NCBI RefSeq assembly: GCF_045037415.1
Contig: NZ_CP173438.1
Length of the DNA stretch: 64,000 bases
Reading direction: 5' to 3' (one strand)
Origin: Escherichia coli
GTDB taxonomy: Bacteria; Pseudomonadota; Gammaproteobacteria; Enterobacterales; Enterobacteriaceae
Shown: piece after piece, positions 43,195 to 44,577 of the stretch
How positions within the stretch are numbered: the first letter of the stretch is position 1
Layout: each line of letters starts with the position of its first letter
The notes under the pieces: generated by a model
Database searches by the model: none
What the model was told of the DNA's origin: nothing
The model's input: the letters and a program-made list of their open reading frames with translations, nothing else
Position numbers and translations under genes: made by a program

Positions 43195-44577
43195 TCAACC
43201 TGCCACACTCCCCCACACCAGTTGCCCTTTATGGAACGTCGCCGTTCTCGGCGAAATACGCGCCACCGCCTCGGCGGAACAGGAGGCGTCCACCAGCACA
43301 AAACTGGCATCATCCTGCGCTTTGGGCCACACGCGCTCGCCTTTTTCGTTGAGCGGCAATACATCGCCAGTGGCTAAAAACAGAGAGCGGGAGAGGTTCT
43401 GTTCGTTAGGACGAATATAGAGCTGCGCGTACAGATTGGCTTTTTCCAGCATGTCGCCCAGGCCGTAAGGCGACCAGTGGTCGATAACGCTGTCGGTGCC
43501 GGTCATCACTTTTACGCCTTTGTCGTGCAGCTGTTTGAGCGGCATATGCAGCGTGCCAATCGGCACCGTCGAAGCGATCGAAATTCGCTGCGCCGCCATC
43601 CGGTGCGCCAGTTCATCTACCTGTTGTTCGTTGAGCGTTGCCAGCGCAAAGGCGTGGCTGATGGTCAGCTTGCCCTTCAGCTGTGGCGTTTTCTCCACTG
43701 TTTCAACCATATAATTGATGGCTGCCACGCCTGCCGGCGTGGTTTCGTGCAGGTGAATATCGACGCCTTTGTCATAGTCCAGCGCAATCTGGAACATGGT
43801 GTCGAGGGATTTTTCCATCGCGCCATCAACACTGGTCGGGTCCAGCCCGCCGACGTAATGCGCCCCCGCCTGCATCGCTTCGCGCATTAAGGATTCCGAT
43901 TTCGACAGCAGCAAACCGTGCTGCGGGAAGGCGACGATCTCACACTCGAAGCCCGTCTGACGTCGCGCCAGCACCGCCTGCAAATTTTGCAGATTTTTCA
44001 GGCCGGAAACCGGTTCGATATTGCAGTGGCTGCGGGCAATAGTGGTGCCTTTCGACTGCAATAAATCGATCAGTTTTTCCGCCCGTTCCTGCGTGTACGG
44101 TTGCAGTTCCGGCAGCATTTTCTGCTCGAGTTTGATCATGTCCTGGATAGTGGTGCCTGCCGGACGATTGAGCGAGCGCCACGGCCCGCCGTAGAAGGTT
44201 TTGTCGAGATGAATATGCATATCGCGGGTGGTGGGCAGCATCAGCTTACCGCCAGCGTCATAGTGCGGCAGCGTGGCGTCCGGATGCTGCTTGTTCTCGC
44301 GCAGGGCAACAATTTTACCGTCCTGAATCTCCACGGTCTGGCGCGCCGTGCGGGTCTGTACCGCCACGCCATTTTCGTAGTCAAAACCGGTTTCCAGCAG
44401 CACGTTATCGAGATAGTAATGCGGGTCAGTGATTTTCATGGTGTTGTTCGCTTCGCAGTTTAGGGTGCCAGCTACCCCCGCATGGGCGAGCGGCACTGAG
44501 GTACCAAACAGCGCGGCGGCGGTGACCATCTTACCGCTCTGGCTCAGAAATTCACGGCGGCTATTGTTTTCTTTCAT
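43195..44577 (-). CDS. yahJ: YahJ, amidohydrolase-superfamily deaminase with twin-arginine signal peptide (460 aa)
   Basis: N-terminal SRREFLSQSGKMVTAAALFGTSVPLAHA (Tat motif); metal-binding HxH amidohydrolase pattern. Confidence 0.9.
   Translation of the reverse strand: MKENNSRREFLSQSGKMVTAAALFGTSVPLAHAGVAGTLNCEANNTMKITDPHYYLDNVLLETGFDYENGVAVQTRTARQTVEIQDGKIVALRENKQHPDATLPHYDAGGKLMLPTTRDMHIHLDKTFYGGPWRSLNRPAGTTIQDMIKLEQKMLPELQPYTQERAEKLIDLLQSKGTTIARSHCNIEPVSGLKNLQNLQAVLARRQTGFECEIVAFPQHGLLLSKSESLMREAMQAGAHYVGGLDPTSVDGAMEKSLDTMFQIALDYDKGVDIHLHETTPAGVAAINYMVETVEKTPQLKGKLTISHAFALATLNEQQVDELAHRMAAQRISIASTVPIGTLHMPLKQLHDKGVKVMTGTDSVIDHWSPYGLGDMLEKANLYAQLYIRPNEQNLSRSLFLATGDVLPLNEKGERVWPKAQDDASFVLVDASCSAEAVARISPRTATFHKGQLVWGSVAG

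What the first reader, a model, noticed from the sequence alone, without database searches (positions are those of the whole stretch)
43195..44577. YahJ has a twin-arginine signal peptide: a periplasmic, probably metal-containing, amidohydrolase
The N-terminus SRREFLSQSGKMVTAAALFGTSVPLAHA is a textbook Tat signal, implying export in folded form. Combined with the cytoplasmic YahEFGI enzymes this suggests a split pathway: periplasmic deamination or hydrolysis of a substrate followed by cytoplasmic processing.
Basis: partly seen in the sequence, partly recalled or inferred. Interest (0 to 1): 0.35.

Follow-up and report, generated by a model that had tools for sequence, protein, structure and literature searches.

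The report
Known Tat-exported YahJ amidohydrolase of E. coli
The E. coli gene yahJ really does start with a twin-arginine export signal on a metal-dependent deaminase-like enzyme, but this has been in Tat-substrate lists for about twenty years and the signal has already been tested, so only the function of the surrounding pathway remains open.

Summary
Window 43195-44577 (minus strand) is E. coli yahJ, 460 aa. It begins MKENNSRREFLSQSGKMVTAAALFGTSVPLAHA|G: an SRRxFL motif, a mildly hydrophobic h-region and an AxA cleavage site.

It is not chance. The motif is kept in 84 of 85 species, while the linker after the cleavage site varies freely. More distant family members (45% identity or less, about 400 aa) have no signal. 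A Priestia homologue has tatA-tatC directly downstream.

The mature domain is a CodA/AtzC-like (beta/alpha)8 amidohydrolase. All four CodA metal ligands and its catalytic Glu and His are conserved.

It is not new. YahJ appears in published Tat-substrate tables. ssYahJ has been tested in reporter fusions and used as an export tag, and is described there as accepted by both Tat and Sec. A yahJ deletion mutant has been tested in mice.

The "split pathway" idea is plausible but unproven. YahE, YahF and YahG are paralogues of the oxamate carbamoyltransferase AllH, AllF and AllG, and YahI is a carbamate kinase. The gene order E-F-G-(permease)-I-J recurs even where the amidohydrolase is only 34% identical. 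Relatives carry a nucleobase-type permease between yahG and yahI; this E. coli has only REP elements there. About half of the YahJ homologues stand alone beside a LysR regulator. The substrate is unknown.

The parts
43195..44577 (-). yahJ coding sequence (460 aa precursor; stop codon included)
   Evidence: ORF list, translation, 100% match to annotated yahJ. NCBIfam NF005312 scores 715.9 bits against a cut-off of 447.
44479..44577 (-). Signal peptide, residues 1-33 (MKENNSRREFLSQSGKMVTAAALFGTSVPLAHA). Predicted signal peptidase I cut after A33.
   Evidence: The same 33 residues (one substitution) are listed as the TatP-predicted signal in PMC7549933. pLDDT is below 50 in the AF2 model.
44542..44562 (-). 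Twin-arginine motif S6-R7-R8-E9-F10-L11-S12
   Evidence: xRRxF[LIM] is present in 83 of 85 species loci.
44428..44478 (-). Variable linker at the mature N-terminus (about residues 34-50); not part of the fold
   Evidence: Not conserved among orthologues. Low pLDDT. The NF005312 profile match starts at residue 49.
44209..44217 (-). H121-I-H123, the HxH metal-binding motif
   Evidence: Aligns with CodA H61/H63. Invariant in alignment A1.
43744..43755 (-). H275-L-H-E278: third metal ligand and catalytic Glu
   Evidence: Aligns with CodA H214 and E217. H275 and H277 are invariant in A1; E278 is kept in the exported YahJ clade only.
43492..43494 (-). D362, the fourth metal ligand
   Evidence: Aligns with CodA D313. 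Invariant in A1.
44584..44588 (-). Shine-Dalgarno AAGGA for yahJ, overlapping the yahI stop codon (9-nt intergenic gap, so the two genes are probably co-translated)
   Evidence: Sequence read.
44587..45537 (-). yahI, a carbamate kinase family protein with no signal peptide
   Evidence: Pfam AA_kinase, annotation, N-terminus.
45538..45689 (-). yahG-yahI gap holding a REP/BIME element (the old 'yahH'). Relatives have a 515-aa nucleobase-type permease gene at this position.
   Evidence: REP copy at 45633-45666 and its inverted partner. Permease present in 29 of the 85 loci tabulated. No trace of it in the window. PMC11551758.
45690..47108 (-). yahG, AllG-like subunit
   Evidence: Pfam PF06545 AllG, E = 4.5e-89.
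47108..48655 (-). yahF, FdrA/AllF-like subunit
   Evidence: Pfam CoA_binding and Ligase_CoA; annotated fdrA.
48645..49508 (-). yahE, AllH-like subunit
   Evidence: Pfam PF11392 AllH, E = 1.1e-28.
49548..50153 (-). yahD, a cytoplasmic ankyrin-repeat protein and first gene of the cluster. It is also found directly next to yahJ homologues that lack the AllFGH-like genes.
   Evidence: Pfam Ank. No signal. Adjacency in L040, L043, L045, L050, L062, L063 and L002.

Best explanation
YahJ is made as a 460-aa precursor. Its 33-residue twin-arginine signal takes it across the inner membrane, mainly through TatABC as a folded protein that is probably already loaded with metal. Signal peptidase I then cuts after A-H-A33 and releases a soluble periplasmic enzyme of about 47 kDa.

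The enzyme is a mononuclear-metal (beta/alpha)8 amidohydrolase of the cytosine-deaminase/AtzC type. It most likely removes an amino, imino or alkylamino group hydrolytically from an N-rich compound, either nucleobase-like or an amidine/guanidine.

Where the full cluster exists, the product is probably taken up by an AGZA-type nucleobase permease, which this E. coli has lost. In the cytoplasm the AllFGH-like carbamoyltransferase YahEFG would then cleave it by phosphorolysis, and the carbamate kinase YahI would convert the carbamoyl phosphate to ATP, CO2 and NH3. This is the logic of the arginine-deiminase and oxalurate pathways, but with the first step placed outside the cytoplasm.

Shown here: the signal anatomy, its conservation, the catalytic residues, the fold and the synteny.
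Inferred: the export route of the native protein, the metal, the substrate, the order of steps and the coupling to YahEFGI.

My confidence by step: extracytoplasmic location 0.9; Tat as the main route 0.8; metal-dependent deaminase-type chemistry 0.85; functional coupling to YahEFGI 0.55; the ADI-like order of steps 0.35.
For: Signal:
- The sequence and its anatomy.
- It scores 15.4 bits on the Tat matrix, against a maximum of 2.0 for the other ORFs in the window.
- xRRxF[LIM] in 83 of 85 species loci, plus SRRALL in one more, with a variable linker after it.
- Family members at 45% identity or less are about 400 aa long and have no signal, so the extension is a specific, maintained addition.
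- The Priestia homologue P0123 lies between a divergent Xan_ur_permease gene and tatA-tatC directly downstream.
- The Caulobacter homologue sits next to a TonB-dependent receptor.

Literature:
- Listed as a Tat substrate (PMC3027627; PMC7549933).
- ssYahJ drives periplasmic export of fusion proteins (PMC6788121).

Enzyme:
- NF005312 scores 715.9 against a cut-off of 447.
- PDB sequence hits to AtzC-like 6nbo (E = 3e-44) and to CodA.
- CodA ligands and catalytic residues are conserved and mostly invariant in A1.
- The AF2 model has mean pLDDT 88, with residues 1-45 disordered. Foldseek finds 6nbo at E = 1e-33, then CodA.

Pathway:
- YahG matches Pfam AllG, YahE matches AllH, YahF is FdrA-like and YahI is AA_kinase.
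- AllFGH is the oxamic transcarbamylase (PMC11326118).
- The order D-E-F-G-(permease)-I-J is found in Citrobacter, Enterobacter, Buttiauxella, Providencia, Budvicia, Atlantibacter and Aeromonas. It also occurs in a distant contig (L008) where the Tat-signal amidohydrolase is only 34% identical and a PucR regulator is adjacent.
- Sources name the permease as xanthine or AGZA permease.
- A 9-nt yahI-yahJ junction with a shared stop codon and Shine-Dalgarno.
Against: - No direct localisation of full-length native YahJ was available to me. The primary paper (Tullman-Ercek 2007) is not held.
- ssYahJ is described as usable by both Tat and Sec. There is no basic Sec-avoidance residue in the c-region or early mature part.
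- The Pfam scans gave no TAT_signal hit, and the NCBIfam scan of the full protein listed no twin-arginine signal model either.
- Coupling to YahEFGI is not universal. Homologues at 64% identity or less (Serratia, Photorhabdus, Rhizobiales, Paracoccus, Pantoea, Rahnella) sit beside only a LysR regulator.
- The IncF-plasmid copies of the cluster in E. coli end before yahJ.
- This E. coli lacks the permease.
- A deaminase product is not obviously a ureido compound, so a ring-opening step may be missing from the scheme.
- No paper on the function of the cluster was found.
Confidence: 0.6

Rival explanations
1. YahJ is periplasmic but reaches the periplasm mainly through Sec, as an unfolded chain. 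It would then fold and pick up its metal in the periplasm, and the RR motif would be tolerated rather than required.
For: [quoted passage not shown] There is no Lys or Arg in the c-region, and the first 12 mature residues have net charge -1. These are the features reported to permit Sec use.
Against: RR-x-F-[LI] is kept in 84 of 85 species while the neighbouring positions vary, which is not expected if Sec were the route. A dedicated tatA-tatC pair lies downstream of the Priestia homologue. The h-region is rich in Gly, Thr and Ser and only weakly hydrophobic. The rest of the family consists of cytoplasmic enzymes that fold and bind their metal in the cytoplasm.
Confidence: 0.12
2. YahJ is a stand-alone periplasmic scavenging or detoxifying deaminase. 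It would release NH3 from, or inactivate, an external N-heterocycle. Its position after yahI in Enterobacteriaceae would then be operon convenience, not a pathway.
For: About half of the species loci have yahJ with only a LysR regulator, sometimes with an MFS or ABC transporter, and no AllFGH/CK genes. The Priestia version pairs it with a nucleobase permease only. Plasmid copies of the cluster lack yahJ. The REP-filled gap separates yahI-yahJ from yahDEFG in E. coli.
Against: The same E-F-G-I-J order, with a Tat-signal amidohydrolase last, recurs in a contig where the amidohydrolase is only 34% identical. The yahI-yahJ junction is 9 nt with an overlapping stop codon and Shine-Dalgarno. The plasmid truncation is caused by IS elements.
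Confidence: 0.3
3. The RR motif is non-functional and YahJ is cytoplasmic, or translation really starts at Met17 or Met47.
For: No direct localisation of the native protein was seen here. No TAT_signal HMM hit. In-frame Met17 and Met47 exist.
Against: Residues 1-16 are conserved at the protein level across genera. There is a good Shine-Dalgarno before ATG-1. A start at Met17 would leave a bare hydrophobic segment. ssYahJ exports reporters. Cytoplasmic relatives simply lack the whole extension.
Confidence: 0.03

Closest known systems
E. coli cytosine deaminase CodA (also in this window, 29381-30676, minus strand)
   Same: Same amidohydrolase subtype. HxH, His and Asp metal ligands plus the catalytic Glu, His and Gln align one to one. 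Foldseek E = 2e-26 to 1k6w.
   Different: Only 26% identical. YahJ scores 72-104 bits on the cytosine-deaminase NCBIfam models, whose cut-offs are 403-483, so it is not a CodA orthologue. CodA is cytoplasmic and has no signal; YahJ adds a 33-aa Tat signal and a linker of about 15 aa.
AtzC-type N-isopropylammelide isopropylaminohydrolase (PDB 6nbo, 2qt3, 4cqb)
   Same: Best hit among solved structures by sequence (E = 3e-44) and by fold (E = 1e-33, target TM-score 0.88). A mononuclear Zn/Fe hydrolase acting on an amino-substituted N-heterocycle.
   Different: 21-29% identity. There is no triazine-pathway gene context. Whether the AtzC proteins have a signal was not examined here. The YahJ substrate is unknown.
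Established E. coli Tat substrates without redox cofactors (AmiA, AmiC, SufI, MdoD, YcbK)
   Same: Hydrolase-type or cofactor-less proteins listed together with YahJ in Tat-substrate tables (PMC7549933). The signal architecture is similar.
   Different: For those proteins Tat dependence of the native protein is documented (my knowledge). For YahJ I could confirm only reporter-fusion evidence, at second hand.
Bacillus subtilis phoD-tatAd-tatCd arrangement (a substrate gene followed by its own translocase genes; from my knowledge, Jongbloed et al. 2000)
   Same: The Priestia YahJ homologue is followed directly by tatA and tatC.
   Different: The cargo is different (an amidohydrolase, not a phosphodiesterase). 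E. coli yahJ has no linked tat genes.
AllFGH oxamic transcarbamylase plus AllK carbamate kinase (anaerobic allantoin pathway), and the arginine/agmatine deiminase pathways
   Same: YahE, YahF and YahG carry the AllH, FdrA and AllG domains and YahI is a carbamate kinase. The logic is the same: deiminase or hydrolase, then phosphorolytic carbamoyltransferase, then carbamate kinase, with a dedicated transporter.
   Different: In the known pathways every enzyme is cytoplasmic. Here the hydrolase carries an export signal. The ureido intermediate is unknown. The AllFGH paper does not mention the yah paralogues.

Membership tests
Twin-arginine (Tat) signal peptides | S/T-R-R-x-F-L-K motif at the boundary of the n- and h-regions | tested here: met
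   S6-R-R-E-F-L-S12, which matches 6 of 7 consensus positions. Conserved in 84 of 85 species.
Twin-arginine (Tat) signal peptides | A moderately hydrophobic h-region of about 12-20 residues, then an A-x-A signal peptidase I site. Total length is longer than typical Sec signals. | tested here: met
   MVTAAALFGTSVPL, mean hydropathy 1.56. A-H-A at residues 31-33. The signal is 33 aa long.
Twin-arginine (Tat) signal peptides | Match to the curated signal HMMs (Pfam PF10518 TAT_signal; TIGR01409) | tested here: inconclusive
   No hit, even at E up to 10 on the isolated N-terminus in Pfam. The NCBIfam scan of the full protein listed no twin-arginine signal model either. The models are very short and HMMER's filters drop weak hits. 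My own matrix built from 24 E. coli Tat signals gives 15.4 bits against a background maximum of 2.0.
Twin-arginine (Tat) signal peptides | Export depends on TatABC and on the RR pair | not testable with these tools
   Only second-hand evidence. ssYahJ is cited as mediating periplasmic translocation and as being accepted by both Tat and Sec (PMC6788121). The primary paper is not held.
Bacterial lipoprotein signal (considered and rejected) | Lipobox [LVI][ASTVI][GAS]C at the end of the h-region | tested here: not met
   The only nearby Cys is C41, in T-L-N-C, 8 residues after the AxA site. It is absent from many orthologues.
Amidohydrolase superfamily, mononuclear CodA/AtzC-like subtype | (beta/alpha)8 barrel with HxH (strand 1), His (strand 5) and Asp (strand 8) metal ligands | tested here: met
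   Pfam Amidohydro_3 at 68.4 bits and Amidohydro_1 at 30.8 bits. H121, H123, H275 and D362 align with the CodA ligands and are invariant in A1. Fold matches.
NCBIfam NF005312 (PRK06846) amidohydrolase subfamily | Whole-protein score above the curated cut-off of 447 bits | tested here: met
   715.9 bits, covering residues 49-459 against profile positions 2-410 of 412. The signal and linker lie outside the profile.
Cytosine deaminase (NF005759 equivalog; NF005748 and NF006685 subfamilies) | Score above the curated cut-offs of 403-483 bits | tested here: not met
   72.3, 104.3 and 83.3 bits. It works like a CodA-type enzyme but is not a cytosine deaminase orthologue.
Deiminase / carbamoyltransferase / carbamate kinase (ADI-like) catabolic module | Co-located hydrolase, phosphorolytic carbamoyltransferase, carbamate kinase and transporter genes | tested here: inconclusive
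   The hydrolase (yahJ), the AllHFG-like genes (yahEFG) and the carbamate kinase (yahI) are present and syntenic. The transporter is present in relatives but absent from this window. No biochemical link has been shown.

The most novel reading that the evidence does not exclude
The yahDEFG-(permease)-IJ cluster encodes an undescribed ATP-yielding, arginine-deiminase-like pathway for an unidentified N-rich compound. Its first, ammonia-releasing step would be carried out in the periplasm by Tat-exported YahJ. The product would be imported by a nucleobase-type permease family that has no Pfam or NCBIfam model. It would then be phosphorolysed by an AllFGH-type three-subunit carbamoyltransferase. 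Escherichia would have lost the permease, with a REP element in its place, leaving a partly disabled or re-plumbed pathway. The ankyrin protein YahD may be a dedicated partner of YahJ.
Probability: 0.3. Interest if true: 0.55.

Novelty: already known. Interest (0 to 1): 0.2.

Why it matters
The finding as stated adds nothing new. YahJ's Tat signal is in published Tat-substrate lists, has been used as an export tag, and a yahJ deletion has been tested in mice.

What remains useful is the context. YahJ is one of the few Tat substrates of E. coli with no known function. It sits next to paralogues of the oxamate carbamoyltransferase, which was identified only in 2024. That pairing gives a concrete, testable hypothesis for a six-gene block of the E. 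coli y-ome.

If YahJ is shown to load its metal in the cytoplasm before export, it would also be a simple model for why non-redox metal hydrolases use Tat.

Tried and rejected
- Pfam TAT_signal scans on the full protein and on the isolated N-terminus gave nothing, and the NCBIfam scan of the full protein listed no twin-arginine signal model. I replaced them with my own matrix test.
- The primary reporter-fusion paper (Tullman-Ercek 2007) could not be fetched by DOI or PMC id. One literature query was malformed.
- Lipoprotein reading: rejected, because there is no lipobox.
- Alternative starts at Met17 or Met47: rejected, on conservation of residues 1-16 and the Shine-Dalgarno before ATG-1.
- Cytosine deaminase orthology: rejected, because scores are far below the curated cut-offs.
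- Search for a remnant of the permease gene in the 64-kb window: none found.
- Pfam, NCBIfam and PDB sequence searches on the permease: no family and no structure. Only the names given by source databases were available.
- Literature on yahB/D/E/F/G/I function: nothing relevant. The AllFGH and AllK papers do not mention the yah paralogues.
- The promoter and terminator scan around yahJ was uninformative: counts were at shuffle level and no site lay on the coding strand.
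Full report
**1. What is at the coordinates.**
The window is an E. coli chromosome segment. Bases 43000-44800 are 100% identical to annotated chromosomes, where the genes are yahJ ('amidohydrolase family protein') and yahI ('carbamate kinase family protein'). 5092 of 5426 complete E. coli genomes hold a match to this stretch. The ORF 43195..44577 lies on the minus strand and encodes 460 aa beginning MKENNSRREFLSQSGKMVTAAALFGTSVPLAHAGVAGTLNCEANN.

**2. Is the signal more than chance?**
The N-terminus has the three parts of a Tat signal:
- a 16-residue n-region with net charge +2, containing S-R-R-E-F-L-S;
- a 14-residue h-region rich in Gly, Thr and Ser (mean hydropathy 1.56);
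- an A-H-A signal-peptidase site.

I built a position matrix from 24 other E. coli Tat signals taken from Table 2 of PMC7549933. It scores YahJ at 15.4 bits. The other 100 ORFs of at least 100 aa in the window average -13.0 (sd 6.4, maximum 2.0).

The stronger argument is evolutionary.
- Among 120 close homologues, nearly all keep RRxF[LI]. The visible exceptions are two N-terminally incomplete entries (P0008, P0117) and P0090, a Xenorhabdus szentirmaii protein that reads N-R-H-E-F-L.
- In 85 loci, one genome per species, x-R-R-x-F-[LIM] lies in frame upstream of the mature domain in 83. One more has SRRALL.
- The 15-20 residues after the cleavage site are free to vary.
- More distant family members, at 45% identity or less, are about 400 aa long. 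They start where YahJ residue ~50 aligns and have no signal at all.

So the extension is a specific, maintained addition to an otherwise cytoplasmic enzyme family. The AlphaFold model agrees. Residues 1-45 have pLDDT below 50 and the barrel starts near residue 50. The NCBIfam family profile likewise matches only residues 49-459.

The only negative result is that the Pfam TAT_signal model gave no hit, and the NCBIfam scan listed no twin-arginine signal model. These models are very short, so I treat this as uninformative.

**3. Independent context for export.**
- A Priestia (Bacillaceae) homologue, 51% identical and carrying SRRRFI, is followed directly by tatA and tatC. It is preceded, divergently, by a Xan_ur_permease gene. 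This is the arrangement known for B. subtilis phoD-tatAd-tatCd (my knowledge).
- A Caulobacter homologue lies directly after a TonB-dependent receptor gene.
- Both contexts fit an extracytoplasmic enzyme.

**4. What the literature already says.**
- YahJ (b0324, 'putative deaminase') is marked positive ('y') in the predicted Tat-substrate table of PMC3027627, whose footnote credits Dilks et al. 2003.
- TatP predicts exactly this signal in ExPEC strain PCN033. The yahJ deletion there had a competitive index of 0.70 in mice (p = 0.02) (PMC7549933).
- ssYahJ has been used as an export tag in E. coli and Vibrio natriegens. [quoted passage not shown]
- I could not retrieve the primary paper.

I found no direct localisation of the native full-length protein.

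The reported Tat/Sec promiscuity fits the sequence. There is no basic residue in the c-region, and the first 12 mature residues have net charge -1. 'Export in folded form' is therefore likely but not proven.

**5. The enzyme.**
- Pfam assigns Amidohydro_3 and Amidohydro_1.
- NCBIfam NF005312 scores 715.9 bits against a cut-off of 447. All the cytosine-deaminase models score far below their cut-offs.
- The closest solved structures are AtzC-type isopropylammelide hydrolases (6nbo, E = 3e-44), then cytosine deaminases. Foldseek on the model (mean pLDDT 88) gives the same order.
- CodA itself lies in this window at 29381-30676 on the minus strand. The pairwise alignment places YahJ H121, H123, H275 and D362 on CodA H61, H63, H214 and D313. 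E278, H308 and Q219 fall on E217, H246 and Q156 (the CodA residue roles are from my knowledge of Ireton et al. 2002).
- The ligands are invariant in a 19-sequence alignment spanning 34-89% identity.

'Probably metal-containing' is well supported. The chemistry is most likely hydrolytic removal of an amino, imino or alkylamino group.

**6. The neighbourhood and the 'split pathway'.**
- Upstream on the same strand lie yahD (ankyrin), yahE (Pfam AllH), yahF (FdrA-like), yahG (Pfam AllG) and yahI (carbamate kinase). None has a signal-like N-terminus.
- AllFGH was shown in 2024 to be the three-subunit oxamic transcarbamylase of anaerobic allantoin catabolism (PMC11326118). That paper does not mention the yah paralogues.
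- yahI and yahJ are 9 nt apart, and the yahJ Shine-Dalgarno overlaps the yahI stop codon.
- Across species, the order D-E-F-G-X-I-J is found in Citrobacter, Enterobacter, Lelliottia, Buttiauxella, Providencia, Budvicia, Atlantibacter, Zophobihabitans and Aeromonas.
- It also occurs in a distant metagenomic contig, L008. There the Tat-signal amidohydrolase is only 34% identical, yet it still follows AllH-AllF-AllG-CK, next to a PucR-type regulator.

X is a 515-aa polytopic membrane protein.
- It is 70-87% identical across these loci.
- It has no Pfam, NCBIfam or PDB sequence match.
- Source databases call it 'xanthine permease' or 'AGZA family'.
- In Escherichia, Pseudocitrobacter, Kluyvera and C. 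amalonaticus, X is absent. In this window the 152-bp gap (45538-45689) holds a REP/BIME element instead. No remnant of X exists anywhere in the 64 kb.

Against a general coupling:
- Homologues at 64% identity or less (Serratia, Photorhabdus, Rhizobiales, Paracoccus, Pantoea, Rahnella) are not next to AllFGH or carbamate kinase genes.
- Their commonest neighbour is a LysR regulator, in 29 loci, sometimes with an MFS or ABC transporter.
- In Erwinia and Cedecea only the ankyrin gene accompanies yahJ.

**7. Best reading.**
YahJ is a Tat-targeted periplasmic metal amidohydrolase that is cleaved by signal peptidase I. It performs an ammonia- or amine-releasing step on an external N-rich compound. 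Where the full cluster exists, the product is probably imported and fed to YahEFG and YahI, yielding carbamoyl phosphate and then ATP. This is the logic of the arginine-deiminase and oxalurate pathways, with the first step outside the cytoplasm.

My confidence by step: periplasmic location 0.9; Tat as the main route 0.8; metal-dependent deaminase-type chemistry 0.85; coupling to YahEFGI 0.55; the specific ADI-like order 0.35.

The weak points are the unknown substrate, a possibly missing ring-opening step, the missing permease in E. coli, and the many stand-alone homologues.

The rivals are Sec as the main route, a stand-alone scavenging deaminase, and a non-functional motif. They are set out separately with the results that would refute them.

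**8. Novelty and score.**
The finding as stated is already known. The Tat signal of YahJ is in published lists, has been tested and has been used in biotechnology.

My searches found no publication on three contextual points: the AllFGH paralogy, the conserved nucleobase-type permease that Escherichia lost, and the tatAC-linked Gram-positive homologue. These are hypotheses about an uncharacterised cluster, not demonstrated biology. Interest is low (0.2). The most novel reading not excluded is an undescribed ADI-like pathway with a periplasmic first step, at about 0.3 probability.

Noticed in passing
window 45538-45689 (yahG-yahI gap); relatives, e.g. L009:6300-7847, L016:7461-9010, L008:228-1763: Most relatives with the full cluster carry a highly conserved (70-87% identical) 515-aa polytopic membrane protein between yahG and yahI. 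It has no Pfam, NCBIfam or PDB sequence match; source databases call it xanthine or AGZA permease. This E. coli has only a REP/BIME element there and no remnant of the gene anywhere in the window.
   Followed up: partly
L093 (E. coli IncFII plasmid p24A16CRGN010_A), 3107-11540: 142 of 5426 E. coli genomes carry the permease gene, mostly on plasmids (106 of 152 places). In the one plasmid examined (an IncFII replicon, L093) it sits in a second copy of the cluster: LysR, ankyrin, AllH, FdrA, YlbE-like, permease, carbamate kinase. That copy is cut off by IS elements just where yahJ would follow.
   Followed up: partly
L040, L043, L045, L050 (Enterobacter sp. Ag1, Cedecea, Erwinia); L062, L063, L002: A YahD-like ankyrin-repeat gene lies directly next to yahJ homologues even where yahEFGI are absent. 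It is upstream in Erwinia and Cedecea, and downstream at 38-39% identity in Microvirga. This suggests YahD is a partner of YahJ, possibly a chaperone or escort, rather than of the carbamoyltransferase.
   Followed up: no
L003:7374-11438 (Priestia sp., GCA_004348885.1): In this Gram-positive, the YahJ homologue with an RR signal is flanked by a divergent Xan_ur_permease gene and by tatA-tatC immediately downstream. This resembles the phoD-tatAdCd layout.
   Followed up: partly
L013, L014 (Pseudocitrobacter) compared with window 43195-50153: Pseudocitrobacter YahF, G, I and J are 94-98% identical to the E. coli proteins, but YahE is only 53-56% and YahD 70-71%. This suggests a recombination or transfer breakpoint inside the cluster near the yahE/yahF junction.
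   Followed up: no
P0090 (Xenorhabdus szentirmaii homologue): Among the full-length close homologues listed, this is the only one in which the twin arginine reads N-R-H-E-F-L (RR changed to RH). It may be a decaying signal or a tolerated variant.
   Followed up: no
P0001-P0003 (ENA metagenome proteins, 779-780 aa); window 44587-44589: These predicted YahI-YahJ fusion proteins have the yahI TAA stop read as Tyr, which places the Tat signal internally. They are probably sequencing errors or pseudogenes.
   Followed up: no
window 15543-15576, 29315-29348, 45633-45666: Three copies of the same 34-nt REP sequence (0-1 mismatch) occur in the window. One lies just downstream of the codA ORF end (29378).
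   Followed up: no
window about 40900-41150 (yahM) and about 42900-42980: In the identical reference strain, yahM is annotated as a frameshifted pseudogene. A 75-bp partial 'hypothetical protein' pseudogene lies between yahK and yahJ.
   Followed up: no
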